Assembly: GCA_963575745.1 (NCBI GenBank)
Contig: CAUYUJ010000124.1
Coordinates: 62,001-117,937 of the forward strand
Length of the DNA stretch: 55,937 bases
Source of the DNA: Prorocentrum cordatum
Lineage: Eukaryota
Direction: 5' to 3'
Shown: piece after piece, positions 15,822 to 55,937 of the stretch
Layout of the letters: each line of letters opens with the position of its first letter
Position numbering within the stretch: the stretch's first letter is position 1
Translations under genes and position numbers: made by a program
The notes under the pieces: generated by a model
What the model was told of the DNA's origin: nothing
Databases searched by the model: none
The model's input: only the letters and a program-made list of their open reading frames with translations

Positions 15822-16060
15822 GAAGAAGAAGGCAAATCACAAGCAATAACTAGATGGACAGTTGAGATAACCAAGGAAAATGCTGTTCCAACGATACTCA
15901 GACAATCTCAACAATAATGTGCACTCCGACGACGATGGGCGTGAACAGGCCTGCGACAATCAATGAGAGTGTACGGTACTCAGGCAAAACAGACACTGAA
16001 GCACCGTGTACGGTAAAGAGAACCAAACACCAGGCACGGCACAATGCCGCTCGAGGAGGC

Positions 16061-39898: not shown

Positions 39899-40140
39899 TT
39901 TGAGTTTGAGTCAGGGCGCGGACAGCTGTGACAGCTGAGCCCTAAGACTCCCAAACGGAGCACAGGGTAGCTGGAGAGGGCAACTCTTATCATCACACTG
40001 CCGAGCCACTGAGGCACAGGCAACGGAATAGGATGCAGGAACAAGGAAAAGGATGCAATACAACATGTGAAAATGTAAAGGTGTTGGAGAGCTCCAAGCA
40101 AGATGAAGTGAGTCAGCTGCTTGGATGAAAGATGCTACCC
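39899..40140 (-). mobile_element. 3' end of another retroposon-like insert at the same hairpin site, cut off by the autonomous Helentron
   Basis: Minus strand ...ctgactcaaactcaaa joined to aaccaggttgacgg; unique sequence that ends at the Helentron 3' terminus. No 5' TSD is visible. Confidence 0.55.
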
Positions 40141-40144
40141 AAAA

Positions 40145-40187
40145 TGTGCTCCACGGCCATACAGAGCCGTGGACCTCGTAGAGCTCC
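40145..40187 (-). other. 3' terminus of the autonomous element (subTIR plus hairpin)
   Basis: Plus strand: stem tccacggc (40150-57)/gccgtgga (40166-73), then acctcgtagagctcc (40173-87), identical to the subTIR of family-B HINEs. The minus strand ends GCACA followed by TTTT. Confidence 0.8.
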
Positions 40188-40399
40188 TAGCCACGTGTCA
40201 TAAGTCCATGCATATCTCTGGAATGCGCACGGTGAATTTATTTCCAATAATAGAATGAACACATACATGTATGAGTTTCAAGGCGTCTTCCAGCGCGCGA
40301 GAGCGATGCTTCCGTGGCAGCGCACCTGTATGTAGACATGTACAGATGGACAAGCATGCGAAAATAGGATCGACGTCAGCAGGCGCGGCAACGCACCGG

Positions 40400-40607
40400 G
40401 CACGAGCGCGCGCACGCACATACGCGCGCACGCGAATAAATACAATCTCACGCGCGCACGCACTCACAACCACGCGCGCTCACTCACGCACCGGCACCCC
40501 TCACGCACACACATGCACACACACGCACGCGCACACACACACACACACGCACACACACACGCACACACACGCACTCAAACACACACACACACAAAAAAAA
40601 AAAAACA

Positions 40608-40638
<31 letters not shown>

Positions 40639-40730
40639 GCATACAGACACTAACACAGACACAGACACAGACACACCCACACGCACACGCACACACACAC
40701 ATACACACAGACGCGGCCACACACACACAC

Positions 40731-40761
<31 letters not shown>

Positions 40762-41199
40762 TGCCTGCCAGACACACACACACAAACACACACAAACGCA
40801 AACATCTACAGATACAGACGGACCGACGCCTTCGCACTCACAAACCCATCCCCCCGCTGCTCAGCGCTCTCAATCCCCCGCGAAATCCTCGCGCCCCCGC
40901 GCACCCCGCCCCCCCCCCTTCCCGCCGGCGCTCCGGAGGGGGGAGGCACCGCCCCATGTCGGGGCCGGCCCTCCCTCCACTCCAACCACTCCGCCCTCGC
41001 GGAGCGCCGGGGGGGAGGGAGGATGGGGAGGGGGGGGAGGGGGGGGGGGGGCGCGGGCGGCGCCAGCACCGCGCGCGCACACACGCACACAAACGCACAC
41101 ACACACGCTCACACACACACACACACAAACAGACAAACGCAGACACAGCCACACACACACACACGCGCGCCCACACACACCAGCCAGACACGCACACGC

Positions 41200-41242
<43 letters not shown>

Positions 41243-41609
41243 CACACACACACACACCCGCAATCCACAGACACGGACACACTGACGACGTCGCACTTAC
41301 ACACCGATCCCCACACTGGTTAGCGCTCTCCGCCCCCGCGACCCCCCTGCCGCCCCTGCGCGCCCCGCCCCCCCGCTCTTCCCGCCGTCGCTCCGGAGGG
41401 GGGAGGCACCGCCCCATGTCGGGGCCGGCCCTCCCTCCACTCCGTCCACTCCGCCCTCGCGGAGCGCCGGAGGAAAGGGCGGAGGGGGGGGAGGGGAGGG
41501 GGGCGCAGGCGGCGCCAGCACCGTGCGCGCACGCACACACACACGCACACACGCACACCCACGCACACACACACGCACACACACGCACACACACACGCAC
41601 ACGCAACCG

Positions 41610-41644
<35 letters not shown>

Positions 41645-42363
41645 CGGCAATCAAGCAACATGCGCATGACACGCCCCCTCCCCCCCCCTCCCAAAAAAAA
41701 AATAAAAACACGTAAACACGCAACACGTCCCACAACACAACACACACACACACATGCACATACACGCAAACATAAACCACACCCGCACACACACAACACA
41801 ACACAACATAACGCACAAACACACATAAACACACGCACATACTACACACCCACGCACACACACGGCACACACATGCACAGAGACGCACATCATACACATG
41901 ACAGCACCCCCACGCAACGCACGCACCACACACACACACACACAACACACACGCACGCACACTACACACTCACACACGACACACACACACACACGCACAA
42001 CGCACCCGAACACCACACACACACACACATACGCACACGCACCCGAACACACACACACACACACACACACGCGCAAGCACATGCGCATACACGCACACGT
42101 AAACAAGCACAGACGCACATCCACACACACGCAAACATAAACACACACGCACACACACACACACACACAGACGCGCACAAGCACACACACACACACGCAG
42201 ACACACACACGCACACACATGCACACACGCACACATACACACGCAGACATACACACACACGCGCGCGCACACACACATAATCACACATGCACGCATACAC
42301 ACACGCACACACACATGCACATAAACGCATACAAAGACGAGCACACACACACACACACACGCA

Positions 42364-42407
<44 letters not shown>

Positions 42408-42864
42408 AACGCACACACACACACACACTTACACACACACACACACACACACACGCACGCACGCACGCACACACACACACATACACACACGGACAAAGAC
42501 AGACACAGGCACGCACACACACAAACACACACACACACACGAGCACACACACCTCCCAGACGCACAACACACACAGACACACACAGACACACACAACACC
42601 CACGGACACGGACACACTGATGACGTCGCCCTTACAAACCGATCCCCACGCTGGTCAGCGCTCTCCACCCCCGCGACCCTCTGCCGCCTCCGCGCGCCCC
42701 CCACCCCCCCCCCGCCCTCCCTGCCGGCGCTCCGGAGGGGGGAGGCACCGCCCCATTTCGGGGCCGGCCCTCCCTCCACTCCAACCACTCCGCCCTCGCG
42801 GAGCGCCAAGGGGAAGGGCGGAAGGGGAGGGGGGGGGGGGGCGCGGGCGGCGCCAGCGCCGCGA

Positions 42865-42896
<32 letters not shown>

Positions 42897-43008
42897 GCCC
42901 ACAGACACACACACACACAGACACACACACGCCCACACACACACACACACGTACACACACGCACACACACACAGACGCACACACACACAAACACAAACAC
43001 GCACAGAC

Positions 43009-43078
<70 letters not shown>

Positions 43079-43083
43079 CCACA

Positions 43084-43120
<37 letters not shown>

Positions 43121-43220
43121 CCACACACACACACGTACACACACACACACACAGACGCACACACACACACACAAACACAAACACGCACAGACACACGCAC
43201 ACACACACACATGCACATTA
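40400..43220. repeat. Degenerate (CA)n microsatellite field in the 3' non-coding part of the Helentron
   Basis: About 2.8 kb of CA/CACG/CAGA repeats interrupted by three GC-rich units. Confidence 0.97.
40860..42865. repeat. Three copies of a roughly 200-bp GC-rich unit (about 40860-41075, 41320-41525, 42655-42865)
   Basis: Shared core cgctccggaggggggaggcaccgccccat.tcggggccggccctccctccactcc..ccactccgccctcgcggagcgcc, closed by an inverted repeat. Confidence 0.9.
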
Positions 43221-43653
43221 CACGGGCAACGCCGCTGGATTCAGCTCATTCCTCCCCATCTCCGCGCTGACTACTGCCATGCACCACTCGATCGGCGCCG
43301 CAGCGCGGAGATCCAGCCCTTCCAACCAACGCACCCCCCGCGCCGCGCAAGCGCTCCAGAGGGGGGAGGGGCCGCCGCACTACGGGGCCAGCCATCCCTC
43401 CGCTCCAGTCCGTCGCAACACGCAGCACAGCCTTGCTTCATTCAGCCCCCCCTCCGCCCTCCCTCGCCCACCCCCGCCCCCCTTGTCCTGCCCCCCACCC
43501 CCCCTCCCCCAAACACCCACCCCACCTCCCGATCGCACGCCCCACACACACACACACACCTCCCCTTCATTCCCTCTTCGAAACCCAAAATCCCTGCCCA
43601 GCCCTGTCCTATCGGCCCGAATGCCAGGCGGACCCCGCCGACCGATCCAGCTC

Positions 43654-46356
43654 TTACCCCTGCATGTCCACGGCCAACCCCCGGGCCCCCCCCGACACCC
43701 GCTGCGACGCGCGCGTCGCATCCGCCCGAGCGCGGCCGCGCTGGAAAGCAGCCAAGTCCTCGACCCTTTCTGAACCGAAACCTGTCACCACTCGGTCGGC
43801 GCCGCCTCCGCGCGAAGATTCCGCCCGCTCCACGCGCTTCGGGCGCAGCAGCACCCCCGCGCGAACAAACGCGCCCTCGCCCGCCCCCGCACCCTCACCC
43901 GCGACCGCGCCAGGCGCAGATTGCGCCGCCAGCCGGGCAGACCTGCGCGGAGCCACTGCCTCTGGCACAGTCTCCGGCTTTCTCCCCCCTGGCGCGGACG
44001 CCCTGGCCGCCCCCGGCAATCCTCTCCCCGCGCAGACTCCCGGCTCCTCAACAGCCACCTCTGCGTCGCCCGACGCAGCCGCGTGCCCCCCCGCTTTGCC
44101 GCGGCCTTTGCCGCCCGCACGCAGCTTCGCAAGGCCGCCCCCACCTCGCGCAACTCTCCCAGCGGCACCATCGTTCCCTCCGCCAACGTCCCCAGACTCT
44201 ACCGCGCCATTGGCGCCGCCACCCAGCCTCGTCTCGGCGCGACCACCGACTCCGACGCCAGCGGAGGCGCAGCCCGCGCCAGACGGCGACGCCGCCCTCT
44301 TCCTCCGCGCGCGCCTCGCTGCGGAATGCGGCGCAGCCCCGACGGGCGAGCCCGCGGCCCACCCCCCTCCACCCCCTCCTCCACCTCCTCGCACACCTCC
44401 CCCTCCTCGTCCCGCACCTCCCCCTCCTCCTCCCCCTCCCCCTCCTCCGCCGCGCACAGAGCCCAACCCCGCAGCGACCCCGCCGCGCGCGCCCGGGCCG
44501 CCCGCCGCGCCCACGGCACGCGCGGCGCCGAGCACCCCGCCCTTCGCCGTCGCCGCGCCACTCCCGGCGACCCCGCCGGCATCGACGCCGCGCATCTCCC
44601 CGGACGGCGAAGCCGGAGTCTTCCGCCGCACGCGCCTGGCCGTGGCCGGCGAGCTGAGGACCCCATCGCCCCCTTCGCGCTCCGGCGTAAGCGGGGCACC
44701 CGCCCGGACCGGCACCGGCGCCCGCACGCTCGACCCCGCCTCGCTCTCCGCCGCGACCTCTGCAGGCAGCCGCCCCGCAGCGCGGCAACGCGCGCCGAGA
44801 CCCGAGGCGCTCGCGCCGCCGGCGCCACCGCCACCGACGCCAGTCACCTCACTCCCGCCAGCTCCCACACCCCCGATGCCTGCCCCGCCCCCCCCTCCAC
44901 CGCTCTGCTCATCTGGCGCCCCGCCAACCCCTGGTGCCCCCGCGTCGGCGCTCTGCCCCTGACTGCGCCCCATGCGACAGTACACCGCCATGTACGCCTC
45001 CATCGGCTTCACGTGCGCCGGCTCGCCTCGCATCCTGCGCGGCGGCTTGTCGTCGTCAAACAAAACGTACCCCCCGTCAGGGACGCGGCACAACGTCGTA
45101 TAGTGACCGTTATGCACTGTTTGCCCATTGTGGTACACAACGCCAACCAGCTGCATCTGGGGAAGCCCATGCAGCCTCAGTTGCTCTTCGACCCACACGG
45201 GCTGCCGCGCCTCATGGCCCCTCCACAATTGAACCACCAAAACGCGCGGCACGCCCGTGAGTCGCGTCTGCTGGTCGTGCCAAACCCGGTCGGCATCCGC
45301 GCGGCAACACGCTGGGCAGCTCTTCTCAACTTGTTCAGGCGCGCTAAAGTCGGAGTACATTTCCGACAACATCATCGGCCCGCCGGGCCGCGCGTGGACC
45401 CGCAGCTTCAGAACATCCTCCGCCTCGTACGAGACGGACAAGTGCCCGCACTGACGGCATTTCTGCCGCTTCTCCATCACAAACCCGAACATCCGATCCA
45501 CGTGCGTCACGCGCATGTTCGACGCACGAATGCTCTCGGGGTCCCACGACGCAAAGCGTCCGGCCAACTCCTCTCCGCGGCGCGCAGCCGACATCAGCTT
45601 ACCCCAATACGCAAACACATCATGCTGCTGCCACTCGTTGTCGAACTCACTGGGCTGCCCGAGGAAAACGTCCTCGCTATCAACATTCGTTCGCCGCCGC
45701 ACGCTCACGGGTCCGCCCTGCCAGCGTCGCGACACCAACTGATTGTGCGTGTCCCACAGCCCGCAGACGCAGCAACGCCCACTGGCCCTCTCCTCGCAAT
45801 CGCCCTCCGCGTGCCATCGAAGCCACTCCCAGACGGCAGGCGTCCGCAGCATCAGCTGCGTCACGCTGACCTCGTAGCAAGAATGCCCAGGCCGCGGCAT
45901 CCCACGGACGGGCACGCTACTCACGCTGTCCCACGAAGCCGCGCGAATACCATCCACGCGAGGCACGTCCATCTCTCCAGGGCTCGGCGGAGGCTGAGCC
46001 GGGCGCTCCGACGCGAACAAACTCTGCGGCCCGAACGCCGCGTACACCAGCTCTTCCCGACGGCGCTGTCTTCGGGCTGCCTCGCGTTGCTGCGTTCGCA
46101 AGTACGCCTCCCGGTTTCGGTCCTGCGCCTGCTGCCTCGCCAAGGCCGCAGCCTCCCGCCCCTGCTGAAACCGATTCTGGACCTCGGCACCCTCCAGCCG
46201 GTGCGACCGATCGCGCGTCGCCTGGAGCGCGAGCCGGCAGCGTTGCGCCAGGGCCCTCATCTTATGCTCGCGAGAACCGAAGCACGCGTGGGCACGCACA
46301 TACCCGAACAGCCCAAAGTGGTCTGACACATGGAATTCGCAGCCCTCGAAGAACAC
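43654..46356 (-). CDS. C-terminal segment: USP/peptidase C19-like deubiquitinase domain (about 44975-45905) plus Gly/Ala-rich tail
   Basis: Cys box GMPRPGHSCYEVSVTQLM, QQHDV, CRQC...CPAC zinc ribbon, PRVLVVQLWR and His box LVGVVYHNG...GHYTT....YVLFDD. It is in frame with the endonuclease SDH motif. Confidence 0.85.
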   Translation of the reverse strand: MFFEGCEFHVSDHFGLFGYVRAHACFGSREHKMRALAQRCRLALQATRDRSHRLEGAEVQNRFQQGREAAALARQQAQDRNREAYLRTQQREAARRQRRREELVYAAFGPQSLFASERPAQPPPSPGEMDVPRVDGIRAASWDSVSSVPVRGMPRPGHSCYEVSVTQLMLRTPAVWEWLRWHAEGDCEERASGRCCVCGLWDTHNQLVSRRWQGGPVSVRRRTNVDSEDVFLGQPSEFDNEWQQHDVFAYWGKLMSAARRGEELAGRFASWDPESIRASNMRVTHVDRMFGFVMEKRQKCRQCGHLSVSYEAEDVLKLRVHARPGGPMMLSEMYSDFSAPEQVEKSCPACCRADADRVWHDQQTRLTGVPRVLVVQLWRGHEARQPVWVEEQLRLHGLPQMQLVGVVYHNGQTVHNGHYTTLCRVPDGGYVLFDDDKPPRRMRGEPAHVKPMEAYMAVYCRMGRSQGQSADAGAPGVGGAPDEQSGGGGGGAGIGGVGAGGSEVTGVGGGGAGGASASGLGARCRAAGRLPAEVAAESEAGSSVRAPVPVRAGAPLTPEREGGDGVLSSPATARRVRRKTPASPSGEMRGVDAGGVAGSGAATAKGGVLGAARAVGAAGGPGARGGVAAGLGSVRGGGGGGGGGGGGAGRGGGGVRGGGGGGGGGWAAGSPVGAAPHSAARRARRKRAASPSGAGCASAGVGVGGRAETRLGGGANGAVESGDVGGGNDGAAGRVARGGGGLAKLRAGGKGRGKAGGHAAASGDAEVAVEEPGVCAGRGLPGAARASAPGGRKPETVPEAVAPRRSARLAAQSAPGAVAGEGAGAGEGAFVRAGVLLRPKRVERAESSRGGGADRVVTGFGSERVEDLAAFQRGRARADATRASQRVSGGARGLAVDMQG

Positions 46357-47040
46357 TTTCCCCTACCCTACCAAATGCACCTCCGCCCAAAGCTCCGCCC
46401 CGAACATGACCCGGTCCCGTCTCTGTCCGACAGCCCCCCTCTCGCCGAGACCCGAGTAAAACTTGTTCCCGGGGCAGCCCCAAGAACGACCCTCGGACCA
46501 GGTGTCCTTCAAACGCAGCTGCTCCACAGCGGCCTGCACCTGGGAGTCCGTGCTGTTCATGTCGCCCACAATGAGCAGCCGGTCGCAACCTTCCGCGCAA
46601 GTCCTCGTAATCTTCCGAAGTATCGCGTGACGCCGCTCCCATGCCGCACCCGCGGGCAAGTGGCCCGCGGCCACGTTCACCCACCCCGCGCCGCCCGCGC
46701 CCCCGCCTACGGGAACTTCGACCCGGCACAGCACGCACGGGTCCTCCCCTGACAAAGCCTTGCCTTCCGCGCGCAGACCGCGCCTCACGTACAGGTGCAC
46801 GTACCCCCTGGACTCGTGCGCATGGCCACGCCAACCAATTGGAATTCCGCCTCCAGCTCCTTGTACGCCTCCTCGCCCTCGCATTCCTGCAGAGCAACGA
46901 CATCAACCCCGCGCGCCTGCCTCCAACGGAGCACTTCGCCAGGACCGCCGCGCGCTGGTCGCGGTCGCTCCAGGAGGGCGGCGCCACGGCCGAGCGATGC
47001 CCACCAGCGATATTCCACGTGGCAAACGACAACGTCGCCG
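46300..47040 (-). CDS. AP-like (EEP/DNase I fold) endonuclease domain, split by frameshifts
   Basis: SFATWNIAG, VDVVALQEC, NVAAGHLP, IVGDMN, LKDTW, RRDRVMF and SDHFGL occur in order across ORFs 46262-48091, 46785-47018, 46363-46884 and 43654-46356. Confidence 0.92.
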
Positions 47041-47059
47041 CGCCCTCCAGGCCCTCCTC

Positions 47060-48091
47060 TTCGCCAGCCTCACCCGCCGCTTCCCCTGGCACAGCCGCCC
47101 TCGGCAAGCTCGCGCCCGTCGCGCTGGGCGCCGAAGCACCCGCGCGAGGCACGACGCCGAACGCGCCCAGAACTTCGCGGCATTCCTGCTCCGAAAGCAA
47201 CAACTCCATGACATCCCGCGCCCCCCGCGCGCCGACACCCGCCCGGAACGACGCGAACGCGCCCCGCAGCACGCGACACACGTCAGGCACGAAGGACTCC
47301 GCCGACGCATCCAGCACGCCCGCATTCGCAAGGCGCCCGACACGGCCCAGCAGAAGCCCGAGCGCGCAGGCGATCCTCTGCGAAGGAACACGAACGCGCG
47401 GCGCGTCCCCGAACTCCACCGCCAGCGGGCGCCGCCCAGCACTGGCACCGAGCGGTCGCAGCAGTGCGTCGATATTCCGGGCGATTCGCCCTGCCACGTC
47501 CTCCCTGCGGGCCCGATCGCGCACGCGCACTGCGAGAGACTCGGCTCGCCCGAGCGCCTCCCCCGGCCGACCAGACGTAACACTCACAAACATCCAATCC
47601 TGCGCGACACCAGATCCGCACAGTGGGTCCACGGCGACGACCATTAGCAACTCCTGCTTGTCACTCACGGAGTTCGCATCCCACACGCTCGTCCAATTGT
47701 GCGCAATCCGGGCAAAATGCTCCGGGGTCTCCTCCGCACCAACGTGCCGGCCTACCTTTGCCGAAGCCACAGTCGTCGGCAGCCCCATCCCCGCGCACAA
47801 CTGCCTCGCCACCTTCAAGAAGAACTCCAGCGCCTGGCCCTCCAGCCTGCCCTCTGCCAGCGCGCTCTCCGCTCGCACGTTCACGACCCACTTGTCCATG
47901 CGCAGCGCGCAGCCACCACGGACGTCCCCGAAAGCGTCCTTCATCCTCTTCGCCGCCTTATCCAAACTCTTATGCAGGCGCGGGGGCACCAGCGCGCCCA
48001 TGGCCTCCTTCACGGCGCTCATATGCAGCGGGCCCATGCTCGGAGCCACGGAATCGAACACTCGCTCATCCACGCCCCAGACGCCTCCCAC
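47060..48091 (-). CDS. Inter-domain region with possible degenerate Ulp1/SENP (C48)-like fold
   Basis: LEGQALEFFL ... QELLMVVAV......QDWMFVSV ... PSQRIACAL follows the order and spacing of C48 motifs, but the catalytic His position is D. Confidence 0.3.
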
Positions 48092-50668
48092 CGCTCCACA
48101 ATCAAGTCGACCACGCCGCGCAGGAACCCCTCCCTGTCACCCGAACCCGAAGACTCATGCGTCAGGCGCCCGGCAGCAGCCGTCAGACGTTCGCGCAAAT
48201 CCTCCCGGGACGCACAAGCAGCGAGGGCACCGACATCACCAAGCAGATCCCGCGCGGCGCCCTTCTCCTCCCGCGTCGCGAAGCGCACCCGCCTCCGGTC
48301 CAGAAGCCTTTCGGCCACGGCACGGAGGCGCCGCGCCGCGACGTCGTCCTCTCCAGCCTCGGCAGCAACGGCGCTGTCGAGCTCGGACGCGAACGGCGGC
48401 CCCTCCTCTCCCCACAGCCAAGTGTCCTCATCCACCACTCTGCCCGCCCCTCTCAACCTCTCCGCTTGAGCCGCGGCAACGGTCTTCAAACGACCCAGCA
48501 ATGTCTCCGCCGCGCGTTTCTCCTCCTCAGTCCAGCAGTCCGCCTCGCAGTACCCGTATTTCCGCAACGTGCTGGAAGCGCGAGCCTCCAGTCGCAACTC
48601 GAAGCGTCGCCGCTCCCGGAACGCCGTCGTATGCCTGGCCCTCATGAAGTCCGCATACTCCGGCAGGTCCTCCTCGAACACCAAGTCCCAGGGATGCTTC
48701 ACGCGCGTCGTGGCGACGAAACCGATCCCTGCAACGGCCGCGGTCTTCGCTGACAGGTGAACGCGGACTTTCGCCAACGTCATCCCCTGCGCCTTCCAGT
48801 GCGTCAACGCCCATGCCAGCTGCAACGGGTAGTTCTCGCGCCACACGCCCTCCTCCATGGTAGAAGACACTCTCTGCCTCCAAATGGGCACCCAGTTCCG
48901 CCGCTCCTCGTCTCCCGGGAAAAACGACCGCGGCCGACCCTGCCCGTCTGTCCCTAGATCGATATCATCGAACACGACGAACACGCAAAGGGGCGCCTGC
49001 AAATCCGGCCGAGCGCCATTGTGCGGGTCGGCGCCCTCGGGCCACATGTAGCCGCGCAGCGTACCCATCGCCCCGTTCAAGAGCCCCGCCTCAACCCAGA
49101 GGTTCTGAGTCAACAGCACGCGGGCCCCTTCGCAGACGTACAGCTCGTTCTCGAGTCCGCGGAAGTCCTCGGACGCCATCTGGTCTGGCCTAGACTTCTG
49201 CTTTTTCTCCTTTTTGTCGTGGTAGGCACGCAACGCCGCGATGGGCTTACCACTCGCAGCGGCTACCTGGTACAACCTCTCCTTGTTCACTCTATCGGCG
49301 CCACATGCACCCGAGGCCCGATCCTTCCTGCCGTCCATCAGCAGCGGGGCCGTCTCGAAGGCCGCCAGCTCCTCCCTCCCCTCCTTGGTCATTTGCAGCA
49401 CCGACCTGTTCCGGCGCTTCAACCACGCTTGATCCCGCTGCTCCCAAGTGCACTGCGCCATGCCTTTCGTGACCTCCAAAAAGCGATCAGCATCCTGCCT
49501 GTACTCCGCCTGCCGCTCCTTCGACAGCCCCTCTTTCTCACCGCGCCACCGGTGCACGCGCCGGAGCACGGCCACGTCCTGGAACGTATCGCGCACGAAA
49601 CTCCCATTATTCACTAACCTGTCCGTGCTCAGGCGTCGTCGGGGGTCCGCTCCGCCCCCCTGGGCTTGTTCTTCGCAGACCCCCCATACGCGCCCATCCG
49701 GTACAGGGGGTCATCGCCGATTGGCGGCGCCTGCTGAGGATCCCCGGCGAGCACGGCATCCTTCCCGCCGAGATACACTGGCCTCGCACCCTGCGCCGCA
49801 CGCTTCGCCGCAACACCAAGAGTATCCTGCACCTTGAACTCGATCTTGCCCAGCATCTGCCGCCCGATCATGCTCATCTCATCCAACACAAACAACCTCG
49901 CCTGACTCAGTCGAGTCTGCGTCTTTTGAAACCGGTCCCCGTCCTTGCGTACCCAAGGGCCGCAATATCCCACCGGCACACCGAACGCCCTGTGCAGGGT
50001 AGTCGCGCCATATTTCAACTGGAACGAGGCGCACCCGGTGGGAGCGGCGAGCAAGCAGCAATTCCGCTCCTCCTCATCAATCTCTTCAGGCCCTCGCCGG
50101 ATTTCGCGCACGCCGCGGCGATCTTGATCAGCCTCGTCCTCGGGGCAAACTGCCGCACCCGCTTTCGCCTCGCGGCTACGAAACTGCGCACGGTGCGCGA
50201 TTTCCCCGTGCCGGCCACGCCCGTGACCAACAATCTCAACGGGTCGGCCTCCGAATGGCGGTCGTCCATGACGATGTCGTGGGCGAACTTCTGCCAGGGG
50301 TCGAGATCGGCGCGCTCGACGACCTCGGCCCCGTCGCCTACCTTGGCCTTTCCGTACCACTCATCCCGGAGCTTCTCCAGACGCCCTCTCTCGCTCGTCG
50401 ACACATTGCACGCCTCGTTCAACCAATTGAAGTCCGTGGGGTTCACCCGGACCCTGCCGCGCACCTCATCGCCCGCAACATCCCCGACGCGCACGTCCGC
50501 CGCCTGCACAGCAGGGCCTGCCGCGCTGACGCGCTCATCGGCTGGGCGGCTCTCCCACTCGGACGCCTCCCCCGCGGCCGCAGCAGACTCAGCGCCCTCC
50601 CCCGGCCGCGCCTCGCGTAAGACAGCATCCCGAGCCTCCTCATTCGGGTCCTCGTCCCCGCGCAGCAC
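48019..50668 (-). CDS. PIF1-family (SF1B) helicase of RepHel, split over three frames
   Basis: Walker A GVAGTGKS (about 50199-50222), Ia AAPTGCAS...TTLH, II LDEMSMIG, III AGDPQQAPP, IV RRVHR, GARVLLTQNLWVEAGLLNG, V YPLQLAWALTHWKAQGMTL and VI FVATTRV. Confidence 0.95.
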
Positions 50669-50671
50669 GAG

Positions 50672-51614
50672 TCAGTCCACCAAGTCCTCCACTTCCTCCC
50701 CCGACTCCGCCTTCTCGCTGTCTCTGTCATCGTCGCCGCGCCCAGAGCCATCATAGGACGCCTGCCCCCCGGCGCCGCCCGCCGCCTCCTCTGCCCCCGC
50801 GCCCCGCCCCTGCTGTCGCGCCTCATGCCGCCTCACCATTTCGCGTCGCGTCCGGCGCAGCAGCTCCCGGTTGCTAGCGACCCCGTCTTCCAGGATGGCG
50901 CCGAGCACTTCCTTGTAGAACGGGTTCGCGCGCTCGCACTGCTCCACGACCCACGCCGGAACCCACTGGCGGAGCATGGGGTCAGTGAGCATCTCCATCA
51001 TCATATGCCCCCAATACTGATCGCTCTGCCCCCCCCCAGGCCCTTCCCCCCGACTTGAGCCAGAGATCTTGCACGCCCAGGAACCGCTCGCTTCCAGCAT
51101 CCTGGCCAGCACCGCCCGCCAAAGGCTGAACGAACTCCGTTGCCCCAATGCAAGCCGCCGGCACCGGCCGGACGTCCCTCAGCATCTCCTGTTCGATCAT
51201 GGCCTTGCGGTCCGCGGTCGCCATGTGCCGCCAGTGCGCGATGACGTTCGCCCGCGCGTACGCCTCGTGGCAGGCGTGCTGCACGTTCGCGCACTCCGCG
51301 CTATAGCCAGGGGTCACCAGCAGACACACCGCAGGGTTCCCGCGCCTCAGCTTCCCGCGGTACACAGCGTACTTCCAATAGAATTCGAACAACGACACAT
51401 CGCGCACCTCTTCCACCGAGATGGACTCGTCCCCCCTGGCACGCTGCCGACGCACAAACTCCAGGCGCTTGTCGAACTTGTCCACTATGCTATCCCAGTG
51501 CACAGGCTCGTCATCTGCCTTGTCCCGCAGCGCAGACGCAGGCTTCAGCGCGCGGGCCCCCGTCGTGTTGAGGGTCACGACGGGCAGCATGGACAAAACC
51601 ATGGGCAGGCGCAA
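50672..51614 (-). CDS. RepHel Rep-helicase linker (two frameshifted ORFs, 50982-51614 and 50672-51148)
   Basis: Lies between Rep and helicase, with globular-looking sequence (SLFEFYWKY; HEAYARANVIAHWRH; WVPAWV) and an acidic tail. Confidence 0.65.
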
Positions 51615-52444
51615 CCCAGCAGCGCCACCTCGTAACAGTGGTAGTCCCGCTCCCCGAGCATCCGAGCAAAGAACTTCTGAATGGAGCGCCGAAGGAAATC
51701 AGTCCCTTCGCCCTCTGGGACGTAAGCGCAGACCTCGTTGACGGCGTCGTCGAGCACCTCCTTGATCTTCCGCGAGCCCTTGGGCGCCTTCGTCGCGTAC
51801 TTCGTGACGTACTCCACGACCGCCCACAAGTTCAGAACGGGACGCCAGTCAATGTTCCCCATGTTGGCCAACAGCATGTGCTCCTCGTAACTATTGCAGA
51901 GCCTGTCGTTCCGCGGAAACACCGCCTGCCAGTGGCCCTCCCGGCGGCCCTTCTCCATGCGGAACGGCCGGGGCCCGACGCGGCCCCACCTGTCGCGCGG
52001 GAAATCATATCGGCAGAACACGCACCCCTCCTTACCGCGAGCACACGCGTGAACCCCGAGCCGCGGCGGCCCCATGCCATGCTTCGTGTGCCGCGCCACC
52101 CTGTTCACCAGCGCAGCCACCAGTCGCCGAACGGGTTGCACGTCCAACTTCCCCGACGCCTCGGACGCAAAGGCCTCGTCCAGAACCTTCCACAAGTTCA
52201 AGCACTCCGGCGCAGAAGCGGGCACGCTACGCACCGCCCGGCCCTCCGACGTCTCGCGCACAGCCTCGCCCTCCATCTCCACGTCCAGGTCGAAGGCGCC
52301 AACCTCGTCGTCCCACGTGTACCTGCACGCGCCCGCGTCGTCGTAGCACGGGTTCCACTCCGAGACCACGTGCCCGAAGAACTCATAGAACCGCTTCTCC
52401 AAAACGCTCTGCAGCGCGACGTCCTCATGCTCCGGCTTCAGCAC
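51575..52444 (-). CDS. RepHel segment 2: Rep catalytic tyrosine motif III (frameshifted from segment 1)
   Basis: HTKH..HAC..CRYDFPR, PRND..NSY....LANMGNIDWRP, VEYVTKYATK (YxxKY), then GERDY..YE. These are typical Helitron Rep C-terminal motifs. Confidence 0.9.
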   Translation of the reverse strand: MLKPEHEDVALQSVLEKRFYEFFGHVVSEWNPCYDDAGACRYTWDDEVGAFDLDVEMEGEAVRETSEGRAVRSVPASAPECLNLWKVLDEAFASEASGKLDVQPVRRLVAALVNRVARHTKHGMGPPRLGVHACARGKEGCVFCRYDFPRDRWGRVGPRPFRMEKGRREGHWQAVFPRNDRLCNSYEEHMLLANMGNIDWRPVLNLWAVVEYVTKYATKAPKGSRKIKEVLDDAVNEVCAYVPEGEGTDFLRRSIQKFFARMLGERDYHCYEVALLGCACPWFCPCCPS

Positions 52445-52467
52445 GCCGAAGTCGAGACCAGCACCCC

Positions 52468-55400
52468 CTAGTCGCTGCCCGCGGGCCCCGTGGGGACCCC
52501 AGCAGGTCTCGACCCCCGAGCAGCACCGCGGCCCTCAACGCCATCACCATCCTGAACGTCCTCCACGGGATCACCCCCCGCCTCGTCCTCCGGCGCTGGA
52601 TCCTCTGGCCCGACGCGCTCGAAAGCAACGTCGGCCTCCGCCCCCTGGCCGCGGACGCCCACCTCCCCTTGCACGAGCACCAGCCACCCTCGATCCACCA
52701 GGGCGTCGAGGAGCGCAGAAGCCCTGCCCACGAACTCATCCTCGTCGTCGCCTGCGCCATCTTCACGACATGATCCCGAAGCCGCAGAGCCCTCACCCGC
52801 AGGAGCCCGCGGCGCACGCTGGCCAGGCCGGCCGGCAACGGCGCGCAGGACCTGCTCCAGGGCAGCGTGGGCAGCACCACGACGCCTCCGCTCCTGCAGG
52901 GGCCAGGCCAGCGGTCCTGCCTCAAGCGAGGGCAGGCACGCCGCCACGTCACTCGCCACGCTCGGCGGAAGCATTTCCCCCTCCCCGTCCACGTCCGCGC
53001 GAACCCGCGCAACCGCCGGCCCAGGCAGCCCCACGCTGAACCCGTGGTAATGCAGATTGCCACCCGCGCCACACTCGGCCCTGGCCATGGCCATGTACTT
53101 GAACTGCTCCGAGTGGGGCAGTACGGCGGGCATCTCCATCCGCATGTTCAGCTCCACCCGCAAGGCCATCATGTAGGCCACCAGGTCCGGGTTGTCCCGC
53201 GCGAAACGGAAGCGCTCCTCTCGCCCGTCACCAACCCAATCCCCCAGAGCACGGTCTCCCGCCGCCCCCGCCCCTGGACCTCCCCCCATGCGCTGAATGT
53301 CATACGCGGCGTTGTAAAACGGATTCTGCGTCCACCAAATGGACGGGTGACGGCCGAGCCCGACGACATCCGGCACAAGCGCACGCCCGCGCTGAGTCCG
53401 CCCCTTCCCCGCCGGCAGGTCCAGCTCGCGGCGGAACCGCCTGCCGACCGGCTCGGCGCCGTCCGCCTGAGTGCCCTCGACCCAGGGCGGGTGCCAGGAC
53501 AGGTGCTTCACGGTGCTCTGCAACTTCTTCGACTCATACGACCAGTGCATGGTGGTCGAGGGCACATCGCGGCCCACGTTCGCGAGCTGGCCCACCAGGA
53601 TCCGCACGCGGTCCTCGCTCTCCAGGATTTGCCTGAGCCCGCCCTTCGTCATCACACTTGGGCCCTGGACGCCGAGGCCCGCGCGCCTGTACATGGTCCG
53701 AAACACCCCAAAACCCTTGCCCCGCGCCTCGTTCAGGAGCAGCACGTTCACCATGGCCCACATCACGCGCTGGCCACGCGGGCCGCCGACGAACTGCCCG
53801 GTGCGGTAGCGCATCAGGTGCTGCACCCAGTCCTGCACGGACACCCGCCGGGGACGGTCGTCGAAGAGGTCGCCAATGCCCATGGGAAACTCCAACGGGA
53901 ACGCCCTCGCGAAACGCCCGATGGCGCGCGCCGGGACCGGGTCCTCGCTCTGTCCGGGCCAGCCGTAAATCAAGCGCTCCCCCGTCCGCGCGACTGCCTC
54001 GTCCTCGTCAAACTCCGGCAAGTTCTCCTCGACGCACCCCGTGTCCCTATCGCGCGCAGCTGCCACGAACGTTCCCGCCATGGCCCGCTCGAGCATCACC
54101 TCGTCCAAAACCGACTCGCGAGAGACGCCGCCCTCCGCACCGGCAAACCGGCCCTGCACACGGGGTCGCATCCAATCGACGAGGTACTCGACGCGCACGC
54201 AGTCCACGGCCACGCGGTCCCTCTGCACGGACTTCACGGCGTTATCCTCCCGCGCCGCAGCCAGCAGGCGGCCGAACAGGTCCTCCGTCGTCTCGTCGTC
54301 ACCAAACTTCAACCCCTTCAACTGGCCCTCCGCCTCCGGCTGCAACCCCGTCCACCATCGCTGCACTGCCCCACCATACTCAAACTGCGCCTTGTCGAGC
54401 CACGCACTGAACACGTCGTGATCAACGGCCATGGCTTCATCTTCCACGCCGACGTCGAACTCCCCGTCAGCCGCCGCATCGGCATCACCCTCAGCCGCGG
54501 CCTCCGCGCCGCCCTCGTCGCCTCCCCGCGCATCGTCGCCCTCGCGGCCAGCAGGCTCGCGCCCGGCGTCGTCGCGGGGCCCGACGAAGTGCACGTCAAA
54601 GCCCGCGGCAATGAACTGGCGCGGCGTGACGACGTCGACGCCACAGGGGACGCAATCCCGAGCAATGGCCTCCGCTTCCGTCACGGGCCCAAGCTCCTCC
54701 GGCTCCCCAGCCTCGCCCCCCGACGGCAGGACGCCGTCTTCGCTCTCTCTCGGCGCGTAGGACGCGAGGATCTCGTCGTCCGGGAGCACGTCAAACAGGC
54801 GCGGGTCGTAGTACTTGTGCATGGGCTCGTCCGCAGTACCCCCCAGGCGCCAGGGCCCATACGTGCCCGCAAACGCACACAACGCCCGGAGCACGTGCCC
54901 GCAGTAGCGCCAGCGCACGAGCAGGCCCTCCACGACCTCCTTCCCGAACCCTACATTCCGCCGCAACATCAAGCTGAAGGGCACTTTCCGAGGGTGCCAG
55001 GGCAGCACCACCCGCGGCTCCACGTGCTCCTGCAGCTCCCTCCCCCTGCCTCCATGATCGTACTCGTTGATCACGTCCCCGCTGAGCAGCACCTCCACGA
55101 CGCGCCCTGGAAAGACCAGGCGCCCGTGCAGGTCCACGCCGAAGCGCTGCCGCTCCTCGTCCGTGCAGCCCGCGGCCATGCGCTCGGGGCGGCGCGGGTC
55201 GTCGGGGCACTCGCCGGGCCCACGCGCCGAGTTCACGCGGTCCCCGACACGGAACCCCTTCATGAGGTCGTGGCGCCGCGAGAACCCTGCCACGTCCTGC
55301 GGGAACGAGATGAAGTTCTTGCGGAACTTGCGCAGCCCCGTGCGGGACACCGTGGCCAGGTGCACCTGCATGTGGTCCAGGGCGATGAGCAGGCTCTCCG

Positions 55401-55937
55401 TGAGCGTAGCCTGGTCGAAAAGCTCGCGCAGGTCATCGGACGGGAAGCGGAAGCACGGGTCCATGTGGTTCTGCACGGTGCGGAGCCCCACCACCTGATA
55501 CAGGTCGTCCTCCGTGGCCGCGGCCGCCGCCTGCTTGTCCAGGTCCTGCCTGCACCGCACACACACGCCCCTGCACTCCAGAGCGAAGCCGTCCGGCGGG
55601 TCGCGCGGCGGCACCTCGTCCCACTCGGCCACCTCCGTGCTGCACGCGGCCAGCCCGTCCCCGCCGCGCCGCAGCAGCAGCATCTCCTCCGCGAGCTGCT
55701 CCGGCGGCTCGAAGGCCGGGTGGAACGCCGGGAACCGCTCCTGGCACTCGTGGCACGTGAACTTCACCATCCGCGTCAGGATCGCCTGCGCCGCCTGCAC
55801 CGCCCGCACGGTCGCGTCGCGCAGCTGCACGTCGTACTTCGCCACGCGCAGCGGCACTGTCTTCAGCGCCAGCAGCATGCACTTCTGGTGCACATCTCCC
55901 GCAGCCAGGCGCGCTCGGTGGTCAAGCAGAACCTCCC
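52468..55937 (-). CDS. RepHel segment 1: N-terminal Cys-rich/DUF6570-like region and HUH Rep motifs I-II
   Basis: CHEC..CRGVCVRC, NHMDP..P..L......E..LIA, NFISFPQD, AFPLEFPMGIGD..RPRRV...WVQHL, motif I GRHPSIWWTQN and motif II ARAECGAGGNLHYHG (HYH at 53044-53052). The frame is open from 55893 to the window edge. Confidence 0.88.
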   Translation of the reverse strand, partial: EVLLDHRARLAAGDVHQKCMLLALKTVPLRVAKYDVQLRDATVRAVQAAQAILTRMVKFTCHECQERFPAFHPAFEPPEQLAEEMLLLRRGGDGLAACSTEVAEWDEVPPRDPPDGFALECRGVCVRCRQDLDKQAAAAATEDDLYQVVGLRTVQNHMDPCFRFPSDDLRELFDQATLTESLLIALDHMQVHLATVSRTGLRKFRKNFISFPQDVAGFSRRHDLMKGFRVGDRVNSARGPGECPDDPRRPERMAAGCTDEERQRFGVDLHGRLVFPGRVVEVLLSGDVINEYDHGGRGRELQEHVEPRVVLPWHPRKVPFSLMLRRNVGFGKEVVEGLLVRWRYCGHVLRALCAFAGTYGPWRLGGTADEPMHKYYDPRLFDVLPDDEILASYAPRESEDGVLPSGGEAGEPEELGPVTEAEAIARDCVPCGVDVVTPRQFIAAGFDVHFVGPRDDAGREPAGREGDDARGGDEGGAEAAAEGDADAAADGEFDVGVEDEAMAVDHDVFSAWLDKAQFEYGGAVQRWWTGLQPEAEGQLKGLKFGDDETTEDLFGRLLAAAREDNAVKSVQRDRVAVDCVRVEYLVDWMRPRVQGRFAGAEGGVSRESVLDEVMLERAMAGTFVAAARDRDTGCVEENLPEFDEDEAVARTGERLIYGWPGQSEDPVPARAIGRFARAFPLEFPMGIGDLFDDRPRRVSVQDWVQHLMRYRTGQFVGGPRGQRVMWAMVNVLLLNEARGKGFGVFRTMYRRAGLGVQGPSVMTKGGLRQILESEDRVRILVGQLANVGRDVPSTTMHWSYESKKLQSTVKHLSWHPPWVEGTQADGAEPVGRRFRRELDLPAGKGRTQRGRALVPDVVGLGRHPSIWWTQNPFYNAAYDIQRMGGGPGAGAAGDRALGDWVGDGREERFRFARDNPDLVAYMMALRVELNMRMEMPAVLPHSEQFKYMAMARAECGAGGNLHYHGFSVGLPGPAVARVRADVDGEGEMLPPSVASDVAACLPSLEAGPLAWPLQERRRRGAAHAALEQVLRAVAGRPGQRAPRAPAGEGSAASGSCREDGAGDDEDEFVGRASALLDALVDRGWLVLVQGEVGVRGQGAEADVAFERVGPEDPAPEDEAGGDPVEDVQDGDGVEGRGAARGSRPAGVPTGPAGSD

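What the first reader, a model, noticed from the sequence alone, without database searches (positions are those of the whole stretch)
44975..45905. USP (C19)-type deubiquitinase fused to a Helentron transposase
Seen: Cys box, QQ.D, a four-Cys zinc ribbon and a His box with Cys/His/Asp retained, in frame after the endonuclease SDH motif. The usual oxyanion Asn (GLxNxG) is Arg here. Established: some Helentrons carry an AP endonuclease and an OTU-type cysteine protease. To my knowledge a USP-fold domain is not the standard accessory. Inference: convergent capture of a deubiquitinase, possibly for chromatin or anti-silencing activity or to stabilise the transposase.
Basis: partly seen in the sequence, partly recalled or inferred. 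Interest (0 to 1): 0.78.

Follow-up and report, generated by a model that had tools for sequence, protein, structure and literature searches.

The report
Deubiquitinase domain inside giant Helentron transposase
A rolling-circle transposon of a marine protist carries a ubiquitin-removing (USP-type) protease domain at the end of its very large transposase, a variation on a theme already reported for this transposon group.

Summary
On the minus strand, window 44980-45891 encodes a Pfam UCH/USP (peptidase C19) domain (E 4.8e-15). It has the Cys box, QQxD, a CxxC...CxxC zinc ribbon and the His/Asp box, with Arg where USPs have the oxyanion Asn. An AlphaFold model (pLDDT 89) matches solved USPs.

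The domain follows the endonuclease SDH motif in frame. Unbroken relatives show one ORF of up to 4,174 aa: DUF6570, Rep (HUH/YY), PIF1 helicase, an unannotated Ulp1/NEDP1-fold domain, AP endonuclease, USP, low-complexity tail.

The window copy is broken by 8 one-base frame shifts and at least 2 premature stops. All four public runs laid, two of them metatranscriptome libraries, hold a ~99% identical version. It lacks the 8 indels (one untested in one run) and the one internal stop shown in the table.

The family is large (552 representatives at E<=1e-3) and includes named dinoflagellate proteins.

It is not entirely new. HELIANO (2024) lists UCH among domains kept in Helentron-type (HLE2) elements, but in vertebrate-dominated subgroups, in separate ORFs and apart from EN. 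OTU and VTD deubiquitinases in Helentrons are also published.

Verdict: new variant of a known kind. Deubiquitinase activity is probable but unproven.

The parts
44980..45891 (-). USP (peptidase C19) catalytic domain. Cys 45877-45879, His within 45094-45108, Asp within 45049-45060, Arg at the oxyanion-Asn position 45892-45894, zinc ribbon CxxC 45445-45462 and CxxC 45304-45321.
   Evidence: Pfam UCH 56.3 bits, E 4.8e-15. PDB sequence hits were all USPs. AlphaFold2 model pLDDT 89.0, pTM 0.88. Foldseek top hits USP46, USP2, USP18, Ubp8, USP7 at E about 1e-18. Coordinates.
45892..46296 (-). Arg/Gln/Glu-rich linker between the endonuclease and USP, conserved in relatives.
   Evidence: 72% identity to P0005 across the HSP that includes it. 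30 of the 150 listed representatives match in one stretch from the EN tail through this linker into the Cys box (my count on the table).
46297..47023 (-). AP-type (EEP, Exo_endo_phos) endonuclease domain. In this copy it is broken by frame changes near 46937 and 46824 and by a TAG at 46363-46365. Motifs: ATWNIAGG 47000-47023, LQECEG 46875-46892, GDMN 46555-46566, SDH 46312-46326.
   Evidence: Pfam PF03372 30.5 bits (cut-off 24.5) on the middle piece. Collinear with the whole EEP domain of P0005 and P0008. Coordinates.
47147..48070 (-). Unannotated about 300-aa domain with a clan CE (Ulp1/SENP/NEDP1) protease fold. It lacks the catalytic His (Asp instead) and has no conserved Cys.
   Evidence: No Pfam hit above E 0.01. 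AlphaFold2 pLDDT 79.4. Foldseek NEDP1 1.2e-6, Ulp1 2.1e-5. VIA-align NEDP1 Z 17.8, rmsd 3.2, 204 of 210 aligned; Ulp1 Z 16.1; the top 29 rows are all CE-clan folds. Residues.
48019..50360 (-). PIF1-type SF1 helicase: Walker A GTGKS at 50198-50212, PIF1 core, 2B and C-terminal part. Frame changes near 50128 and 49629.
   Evidence: Pfam PIF1 43.3 bits (cut-off 25.9) for 49632-50360(-). AAA_16, AAA_30 and related hits for 50018-50671(-). Collinear with P0008 and P0019.
51575..55935 (-). N-terminal region and Rep (HUH) domain: weak DUF6570-like stretch, HUH motif LHYHGF at 53038-53055, two-Tyr motif YVTKYATK at 51788-51811. It runs off the window end, with about 85-95 residues missing relative to P0019.
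   Evidence: DUF6570 18.6 bits, below the cut-off of 24.3. No Helitron_like_N hit in the window pieces. 50-65% identical and collinear with P0019, whose Rep gives Helitron_like_N 26.5 bits; cluster mate P0017 gives 29.9 bits against a cut-off of 28.9. Motif places; the naming of the motifs is by eye.
43657..44979 (-). Gly/Ala/Arg-rich low-complexity C-terminal tail ending in a conserved block (RRSARL ... VVTGFGS.R.EDLAAFQRGR). The TAA at 43654-43656 is read as a sense codon in the public-run version, whose frame would end at the TAG 43609-43611.
   Evidence: Translation. The tail of P0008 is alignable by eye. 43654 T>A and 43656 A>T in 4 of 4 runs. Sequence read.

Best explanation
Window 43.6-55.9 kb (minus strand) is one copy of a giant Helentron-type (HLE2) rolling-circle transposon of a marine protist. 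In unbroken relatives its single ORF of about 4,100 aa reads: DUF6570, Rep (HUH, YY), PIF1 helicase, a CE-fold pseudo-protease, AP endonuclease, linker, USP deubiquitinase, low-complexity tail. The USP domain is therefore an inherited, integral C-terminal module of the transposase. It is neither a neighbouring host gene nor a recent passenger fragment. That much is shown. The window copy itself is about 1% diverged from a version found in many marine samples and is frame-broken, so it is a decaying copy or carries homopolymer assembly errors. Inferred mechanism: the domain is an active cysteine deubiquitinase tethered to the transposase. It strips ubiquitin, or a ubiquitin-like modifier, from the transposase itself or from host proteins at the transposition site, protecting them from proteasomal turnover or from ubiquitin-dependent DNA-damage or chromatin signalling. 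This would match what has been proposed for the OTU and VTD deubiquitinases of animal Helentrons. I put anatomy and family membership at about 0.95. I put 'catalytically active DUB that benefits transposition' at about 0.55.
For: USP identity: Pfam 56.3 bits; PDB sequence hits all USPs; model pLDDT 89 with 377 Foldseek matches at E<=0.001, led by USP46, USP2, USP18, Ubp8 and USP7.

Fusion: PIF1+EEP+UCH in single ORFs P0006, P0008, P0018, P0019, P0176. P0019 (4,174 aa) also gave DUF6570 and Helitron_like_N, both below their cut-offs. The window is collinear with P0008 (66-89% identity) and P0019 (40-65%) in 9 HSPs each.

Family breadth: 552 representatives at E<=1e-3 and 142 at <=1e-10. 30 of the 150 listed span EN tail, linker and Cys box in one stretch.

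Pfam on the 24 longest: EEP+UCH in 5, EEP only in 4, UCH only in 12 (4 of them ordinary cellular USPs), none in 3.

Constraint among the 152 relatives aligned: Cys in 59 of 69 covering rows, His 75 of 92, Asp 74 of 90 and 78 of 90, zinc Cys 78/78, 78/82, 73/89, 86/90.

Arg is a clade trait: it occupies the Asn position in 21 of 67 relatives. Rows with Arg (22, counting the window) keep Cys in 20 of 22 and His in 10 of 10 covering rows.

An unbroken version exists: the 7 insertions and the 46365 A>T change that removes the TAG are in 4 of 4 runs. The 51029 deletion is in 3 runs, with no cover in the fourth. With these changes the frames become 1,754 + 2,355 aa with one stop left.

The element is present in two metatranscriptome runs of one study, one with a 10,568-nt contig over 44458-54971.

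Precedent: Helentron VTD domains cleave Ub/NEDD8 in vitro, and the authors propose that helitrons benefit from deubiquitination supplied by different DUB classes (PMC9741609, passages).
Against: No biochemical data exist for any member. The window lineage lacks the conserved oxyanion Asn (Arg) and the Asn two residues before Cys (His), which could lower or abolish activity. Some branches have lost the triad while keeping the zinc ribbon (P0048, P0049, P0057, P0103; P0082 partly covered), so catalysis is not needed everywhere. The window copy is broken. The RNA evidence is contigs from metatranscriptome libraries, which can contain DNA and cannot show a single transcript (tool caveat). Rep is not recognised by Pfam in the window itself. 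Element termini and insertion site were not determined.
Confidence: 0.6

Rival explanations
1. The USP domain is a catalytically weak or dead pseudo-deubiquitinase. It is kept as a ubiquitin- or Ubl-binding or scaffolding module, for example to dock the transposase on ubiquitinated chromatin or PCNA-type marks.
For: Arg replaces the oxyanion Asn and His replaces the second Asn of the Cys box. Several family branches lost Cys and His but kept all four zinc-ribbon Cys. The same protein carries a second Ubl-protease fold that clearly lacks its catalytic His, which fits a binding rather than cleaving theme.
Against: In the window lineage Cys, His and both Asp are intact. Among the 22 rows with Arg (window counted), Cys is kept in 20 and His in 10 of 10 covering rows. 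That pattern is what selection on catalysis predicts.
Confidence: 0.2
2. It is a Helentron-derived gene domesticated by the host. The USP fusion would then serve a cellular function and the window holds a dead paralogue.
For: Named dinoflagellate gene models carry EEP+UCH (P0181). The element is about 99% identical across samples of 10 studies.
Against: The family is highly multi-copy and diverse (552 representatives). It has many truncated and frame-broken copies (window; L002 with an in-frame stop). It keeps a complete set of transposition domains. These are hallmarks of a mobile family.
Confidence: 0.08
3. The USP acts as a polyprotein-processing protease, like the USP-fold PLpro of coronaviruses (recalled comparison). 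It would cut the about 4,100-aa precursor after LxGG-like sites into Rep-Hel, EN and other parts.
For: The ORF is unusually long and multi-domain. P0019 ends with an LRGG-containing tail.
Against: The LxGG scan found no site conserved at domain borders in P0008, P0019, P0178, P0176 or P0001. There were 1-4 scattered hits per protein, in Gly-rich sequence.
Confidence: 0.05
4. It is a functionless passenger: a host USP gene fragment picked up by Helitron gene capture and carried along.
For: Helitron-like elements are known for gene capture (PMC11417382, section 22).
Against: The domain is complete, in frame at a fixed position, and retained across lineages only 27-43% identical, with the catalytic and zinc residues conserved.
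Confidence: 0.03

Closest known systems
HLE2 (Helentron/Helitron2-type) elements with a Pfam UCH domain, catalogued by HELIANO (Li et al., NAR 2024, PMC11417382)
   Same: The same Pfam family (PF00443) is associated with HLE2 elements. DUF6570 is an HLE2 marker. The domain sits at a conserved position relative to RepHel.
   Different: There, UCH is enriched in subgroups c and d (mostly lungfish and axolotl), EN in subgroup b, and both are counted among domains encoded in ORFs other than RepHel. Here UCH follows EN in the same ORF as Rep-Hel, in elements of marine protists.
Animal Helentrons with OTU and/or VTD (herpes-tegument-like) deubiquitinase domains (Erven et al., Nat Commun 2022, PMC9741609; Thomas et al. 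2014, PMC4067079, search listing only)
   Same: Rep-Hel plus a C-terminal AP endonuclease, plus a papain-fold deubiquitinase inside the transposase ORF. The catalytic residues are conserved in autonomous copies.
   Different: A different DUB class (USP, C19) at a different position (after EN, at the C-terminal side). VTD activity on Ub/NEDD8 was measured; nothing has been measured here.
Cellular USPs (USP46, USP2, USP21, Ubp8, USP7)
   Same: The model matches solved USP catalytic domains. The Cys/His/Asp triad, QQxD and the CxxC...CxxC zinc ribbon are present.
   Different: 15-21% identity in the Foldseek alignments. Arg replaces the oxyanion Asn. There is an extra invariant H...C...CxxC motif after the Cys box. 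The domain is embedded in a transposase.
NEDP1/SENP8 and Ulp1/SENP proteases (clan CE), for the second domain
   Same: Fold: Z 17.8 to NEDP1 with 204 of 210 residues aligned, and Z 16.1 to Ulp1.
   Different: No sequence-level match. Asp occupies the His position and there is no conserved nucleophile Cys (mapped by motif order and predicted secondary structure, not by a residue-level structural alignment).

Membership tests
Peptidase C19 / USP (Pfam UCH PF00443) | Profile match above the curated threshold | tested here: met
   56.3 bits against a cut-off of 23.9, E 4.8e-15, profile positions 6-254 of 254.
Peptidase C19 / USP (Pfam UCH PF00443) | Catalytic Cys in the Cys box, His in the GHY box, Asp/Asn after it | tested here: met
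   HSCY, GHY and FDDD are present. They are in register with family and cellular USPs in hmmalign.
Peptidase C19 / USP (Pfam UCH PF00443) | Oxyanion-hole Asn five residues before the catalytic Cys (GLxNxGNTCY; the role of this residue is recalled) | tested here: not met
   The window has Arg. Among relatives the position is N in 40 and R in 21 of 67. This is a conserved feature rather than part of the catalytic triad, so it lowers confidence in full activity, not in family membership.
Peptidase C19 / USP (Pfam UCH PF00443) | USP fold | tested here: met
   Model pLDDT 89.0. Foldseek USP46 1.9e-18, TM 0.66/0.72, and USPs fill the list. The zinc-ribbon Cys are conserved.
Peptidase C19 / USP (Pfam UCH PF00443) | Isopeptidase activity on ubiquitin | not testable with these tools
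   Needs a Ub-AMC or Ub-PA assay.
Helentron (HLE2 with endonuclease) | Rep domain with HUH and two-Tyr motifs (Helitron_like_N) | tested here: inconclusive
   LHYHGF and YVTKYATK are seen by eye. No Pfam hit in the window pieces. Relatives: P0019 26.5 bits (below 28.9) and P0017 29.9 bits (above).
Helentron (HLE2 with endonuclease) | PIF1-family helicase fused after Rep | tested here: met
   PIF1 43.3 bits against a cut-off of 25.9. Same order as in P0008 and P0019.
Helentron (HLE2 with endonuclease) | AP-type (Exo_endo_phos) endonuclease C-terminal to the helicase | tested here: met
   PF03372 30.5 bits against a cut-off of 24.5 in the window, and 42-49 bits in P0005, P0006, P0008, P0019.
Helentron (HLE2 with endonuclease) | DUF6570 N-terminal domain (HLE2 marker according to HELIANO) | tested here: inconclusive
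   Window 18.6 bits and P0019 21.1 bits (both below 24.3); P0178 24.6 bits (above).
Helentron (HLE2 with endonuclease) | Termini, 3' hairpin, insertion between T and T without target duplication | not tested
   The 5' end lies beyond the window and the 3' end was not defined. The only hint is that run contigs stop or diverge at about 43543.
Clan CE Ulp1/SENP/NEDP1 proteases (second domain) | CE fold | tested here: met
   VIA-align Z 17.8 (NEDP1) and 16.1 (Ulp1, SENP3). Foldseek 1.2e-6.
Clan CE Ulp1/SENP/NEDP1 proteases (second domain) | His-Asp-Cys catalytic triad | tested here: not met
   Asp (D-W or D-C) at the strand start where His is expected, in all 8 covering rows of A3. The candidate Cys is present in 4 of 9 rows; the helix N-terminus has Ser, His or Thr. 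The positions were mapped by inference.

The most novel reading that the evidence does not exclude
Helentrons of marine alveolates and other protists carry, in one ~4,100-aa polypeptide, a two-part ubiquitin-system module flanking the endonuclease. One part is a catalytically dead Ulp1/NEDP1-fold domain that would act as a Ubl or ubiquitin reader. The other is a USP whose oxyanion Asn is replaced by Arg in a whole sub-clade. If this USP was acquired independently of the OTU, VTD and vertebrate UCH domains, then endonuclease-bearing rolling-circle transposons have recruited a deubiquitinase at least three or four separate times. That would make removal of ubiquitin a near-obligatory step of their transposition, and this family would be a tractable test case.
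Probability: 0.3. Interest if true: 0.65.

Novelty: new variant of a known kind. Interest (0 to 1): 0.5.

Why it matters
Deubiquitinases keep turning up in Helentrons: OTU, the herpes-tegument-like VTD, and UCH in vertebrate HLE2. Nobody knows what they do for transposition. This family adds a USP fused in frame behind the endonuclease, together with a second, inactive Ubl-protease fold. It occurs in abundant marine protists, and an apparently unbroken version appears in RNA libraries. That supplies an independent lineage for asking whether deubiquitination is a general requirement of these elements. It also offers a natural Asn-to-Arg variant of the USP oxyanion hole to test. Finally, gene models in dinoflagellate genomes labelled 'USP domain-containing protein' or 'endonuclease/exonuclease/phosphatase' may in fact be transposon fragments.

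Tried and rejected
1. Own-genome search: no genome is held for this window.

2. Earlier findings of the scan: none by place, words or sequence.

3. The search for related loci with the 22-row alignment A1 failed for lack of a conserved stretch. Repeated with the 5-row A2 it gave 4 loci at 37-40% identity. These are too distant for a dN/dS test, so none was run. Only L002 and L003 were looked at.

4. The first residue count was out of register by two columns because hmmalign trimmed the window row. It was discarded and redone.

5. Polyprotein-processing idea: no LxGG conserved at domain borders.

6. ESM Atlas: only generic UCH clusters at 0.92, with no taxa.

7. The word-indexed search was insensitive: 'near' gave 3 hits and 'longer' gave 2. 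Family size rests.

8. Donor of the USP: the cellular USPs in the hit list are from avocado, a yeast, a basidiomycete and one unnamed ENA cluster. No host-lineage donor can be named.

9. PDB sequence search with the CE-fold domain gave only a chance globin hit at E 0.36.

10. Pfam on seven other long frames of the window (1-20.5 kb): nothing.

11. Literature: Helitron + 'ubiquitin-specific protease' (13 papers), Helentron + OTU (7), Helitron + deubiquitinase (10), Helitron + dinoflagellate (34), Helentron + UCH (3), Helitron + Ulp1 (19). Judged from the search listings and from the four papers I opened, none describes a Rep-Hel-EN-USP single-ORF element. Subscription journals and Repbase are outside the library.

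12. Relation to the vertebrate HLE2 UCH domains could not be tested.

13. The depth figures are per contig and were not used to infer copy number or expression level.
Full report
**What is at the coordinates**

The feature lies on the minus strand. The stop-to-stop frame 43654-46362(-) (902 aa, P0001) starts with the tail of an EEP endonuclease (...FHVSDHFGLFGYV). It continues through an Arg/Gln/Glu-rich linker into a domain that Pfam scores as UCH PF00443: E 4.8e-15, 56.3 bits against a gathering cut-off of 23.9, covering profile positions 6-254 of 254.

phmmer against PDB sequences returned 17 distinct sequences at E<=0.01, all USPs. USP21 was best at 9e-9. An AlphaFold2 model built on a 22-row family alignment has mean pLDDT 89.0 and pTM 0.88. 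Its Foldseek matches are USP46, USP2, USP18, Ubp8, USP36, USP7 and USP21 at E about 1e-18, with TM 0.6-0.75.

- GMPRPGHSCY, with Arg at the position where the family consensus and cellular USPs have Asn;
- QQHD;
- CRQC ... CPAC;
- GHY;
- FDDD.

**Is it fused to a Helentron transposase?**

Upstream on the same strand the window contains:
- Exo_endo_phos, 30.5 bits against a cut-off of 24.5;
- PIF1, 43.3 bits against a cut-off of 25.9, with a Walker A motif (GTGKS);
- a weak DUF6570 match, 18.6 bits, below its cut-off;
- by eye, an HUH motif (LHYHGF) and a two-Tyr motif (YVTKYATK).

Pfam does not call Helitron_like_N in the window pieces.

The decisive evidence comes from relatives. A search for longer proteins found P0005 (1,351 aa, 73% identical) and P0006 (2,079 aa, 40% identical), each with EEP and UCH in one ORF. 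Their 90%-identity clusters contain P0008 (3,586 aa), P0018 (3,382 aa) and P0019 (4,174 aa).

P0019 reads, in a single ORF:
- DUF6570, residues 229-304, below threshold;
- Helitron_like_N, residues 915-1014, 26.5 bits. That is just below the 28.9 cut-off, but cluster mate P0017 scores 29.9;
- PIF1, residues 2044-2158;
- Exo_endo_phos, residues 3051-3283;
- UCH, residues 3428-3724.

P0176 (PIF1-EEP-UCH) and P0178 (4,240 aa; DUF6570 above threshold, PIF1, EEP, and a USP too diverged for Pfam) extend this to further branches. The window is collinear with P0008 and P0019 from 44917 to 55920.

**State of the window copy**

Against P0005, P0008 and P0019 the window changes frame eight times, near 52491, 51614, 51029, 50128, 49629, 48069, 46938 and 46823. 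It also has in-frame stops at 46363-46365 (TAG, where P0005 has Lys) and 50672-50674 (TGA, where P0008 has Arg).

The same stretch (window 44900-48200) is held, at a sampled-word share of up to 0.77, by 20 of the 24 listed public runs. These come from 10 studies, mostly marine metagenomes, and include two metatranscriptome runs from one study.

I laid four of these runs on 43400-55937: two DNA and two RNA-library, all as contigs. All four carry one-base insertions behind 46823, 46938, 48069, 49629, 50128, 51614 and 52491. Three carry a one-base deletion at 51029; the fourth has no cover there. These are exactly the eight frame changes.

All four runs also show 46365 A>T, which turns the TAG into a Lys codon. 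They show 43654 T>A with 43656 A>T, which turns the terminal TAA into the Asn codon seen in P0008.

Applying these differences in a script raises the longest minus-strand frame from 1,155 aa to 1,754 + 2,355 aa in one frame, with a single stop left (the TGA). Whether the runs differ at that stop is not visible, because 224 substitution rows were not shown. One RNA-library contig of 10,568 nt spans 44458-54971 with 105 substitutions and 8 gaps, about 1%.

All eight indels lengthen or shorten a G or C run. I therefore cannot tell genuine decay from homopolymer errors in the window's assembly. Either way, a version without the eight frame shifts and the TAG is widespread and turns up in RNA libraries. 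The tool's caveats apply: such libraries may contain DNA, and a contig does not prove a single transcript.

**Size and conservation of the family**

An exhaustive phmmer search used the EN tail, linker and USP (487 aa) as query. It found 552 representatives (50%-identity clusters) at E<=1e-3, 142 at <=1e-10 and 23 at <=1e-30. By my count on that table, 30 of the 150 listed match in one stretch from the first 13 query residues (EN tail) to beyond residue 170 (past the Cys box).

Pfam on the 24 longest hits:

| Pfam result | Count |
|---|---|
| EEP + UCH | 5 |
| EEP only | 4 |
| UCH only | 12 (4 are ordinary cellular USPs; 3 are named: avocado, a yeast, a basidiomycete) |
| Neither | 3 |

Named members are from the dinoflagellates Prorocentrum cordatum and Polarella glacialis (P0072, P0180, P0181). 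One 79-aa member of P0005's cluster is labelled Pyramimonas sp. in EukProt.

I aligned the 150 listed hits plus P0005 and P0006 to a family profile (after discarding the mis-registered). Counts are over rows that cover each position:

| Position | Conserved |
|---|---|
| Catalytic Cys | 59 of 69 |
| Catalytic His | 75 of 92 |
| First Asp | 74 of 90 |
| Second Asp | 78 of 90 |
| Zinc-ribbon Cys 1-4 | 78/78, 78/82, 73/89, 86/90 |

The oxyanion position is Asn in 40 and Arg in 21 of 67, so Arg is a clade feature and not a lesion of this copy. Rows with Arg keep Cys in 20 of 22 and His in 10 of 10 covering rows. Against a purely catalytic role, some branches have lost Cys and His while keeping the zinc ribbon: P0048, P0049, P0057 and P0103, with P0082 partly covered.

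**A second ubiquitin-like-protease fold**

Between the helicase and the endonuclease lies a conserved ~300-aa region (47147-48070) with no Pfam or PDB sequence match. Its model (pLDDT 79.4) matches clan CE proteases:
- Foldseek: NEDP1 1.2e-6, Ulp1 2.1e-5;
- VIA-align: NEDP1 Z 17.8 (rmsd 3.2, 204 of 210 residues aligned), Ulp1 and SENP3 Z 16.1. The first 29 rows are all CE-clan folds.

A CE protease would have His at the start of a strand. All 8 covering rows instead have Asp followed by Trp or Cys. The following Asp is invariant. No Cys is conserved at or near the start of the central helix. I mapped these positions from motif order and predicted secondary structure, not from a residue-level superposition. 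On that reading the domain is a pseudo-protease, plausibly a ubiquitin or Ubl binder.

**How it probably works**

Shown: the domain anatomy, the fusion, the breadth of the family, and the conservation of the catalytic apparatus.

Inferred: the USP is an active deubiquitinase tethered to the transposase. It removes ubiquitin, or NEDD8-like modifiers, from the transposase or from host proteins at the site of rolling-circle transposition.

The closest experimental precedent is the VTD domains of zebrafish Helentrons. They react with Ub and NEDD8 probes and cleave K48, K63 and K11 chains. Their authors suggest they prevent degradation of proteins needed for transposition, and that helitrons benefit from deubiquitination supplied by different DUB classes (PMC9741609, passages read).

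Rivals:
- a non-catalytic ubiquitin-binding role (supported by the Asn-to-Arg change and the dead branches);
- host domestication;
- polyprotein processing (no conserved LxGG sites);
- a functionless passenger (contradicted by the conservation).

**Comparison with what is known, and novelty**

Helentrons with EN and OTU are textbook for the field. VTD deubiquitinases were added in 2022.

HELIANO (PMC11417382; passages, sections 22 and 23, Table S11 and species tables read) lists UCH PF00443 among 20 domains stably included in Helitron-like elements. It reports UCH as almost exclusive to HLE2 and enriched in subgroups c and d, which come mostly from lungfish and axolotl. EN is enriched in subgroup b. 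Both UCH and EN are counted among the 17 domains encoded in ORFs other than RepHel.

The following appear in none of the search listings or the four papers I opened from six searches:
- the in-frame Rep-Hel-(CE fold)-EN-USP mega-ORF;
- its occurrence in dinoflagellates and other marine protists;
- the Arg-for-Asn clade;
- the CE-fold pseudo-protease.

Repbase and subscription journals were not searchable, and I could not compare with the vertebrate UCH sequences. I therefore class it as a new variant of a known kind, with moderate interest.

Noticed in passing
window 47147-48070 (-): Conserved, unannotated domain between helicase and endonuclease with a clan CE (NEDP1/Ulp1/SENP) fold (VIA-align Z 17.8). 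It has Asp where the catalytic His is expected and no conserved Cys, so it is probably a pseudo-protease. It is present in all family members that cover this region.
   Followed up: yes
window 45760-45816 (-): Family-specific motif W-H-x5-C-x9-C-C-x-C just after the Cys-box helix. His50, Cys63 and Cys66 of the domain are invariant in the 22-row alignment. It may be an extra zinc site in the thumb.
   Followed up: no
window 40200-43560: Directly downstream of the element's ORF lie long imperfect (CA)n tracts. They are interleaved with three copies of a 176-nt unit (40892-41067, 41352-41527, 42691-42866; 75-86% identical to the reference copy). Whether this belongs to the element's 3' region is unknown. 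Run contigs stop or diverge at about 43543.
   Followed up: partly
window 40001-54000 versus 6001-40000: The element and the repeat block have 60-71% G+C with strong negative GC skew. The 34 kb before it has 47-56%. The transposon is a compositional island in this locus.
   Followed up: no
window 43400-55937 versus runs X1, X6, X9, X16: About 1% of positions differ from the version in all four runs. All 8 indels sit in G or C runs. This fits either a young decaying paralogue or homopolymer errors in the window's assembly.
   Followed up: partly
P0048, P0049, P0057, P0103 (P0082 partly covered; relatives, not in the window): These branches of the family keep the four zinc-ribbon Cys (three of four in P0082) but have lost the catalytic Cys and/or His of the USP domain. 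The domain seems to persist without catalysis in some lineages.
   Followed up: partly
window 43657-43900 (-): After about 400 residues of Gly/Ala/Arg-rich low complexity, the protein ends in a block conserved with P0008 (PRRSARL ... VVTGFGS.R.EDLAAFQRGR ... VDMQG). P0019 ends with a similar RRSGRLAAR. Its function is unknown.
   Followed up: no
window 14511-15836 (-) and 19090-20541 (-): Two long minus-strand frames (441 and 483 aa) with internal short repeats rich in Ser, Ala, Val and Gly (for example SSADVGMQV units). No Pfam match.
   Followed up: partly
P0007 (member of the cluster of P0005): A 79-aa member is labelled Pyramimonas sp. CCMP1952 (a green alga) in EukProt, while other named relatives are dinoflagellates. 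The cause could be contamination, a shared element, or horizontal spread.
   Followed up: no
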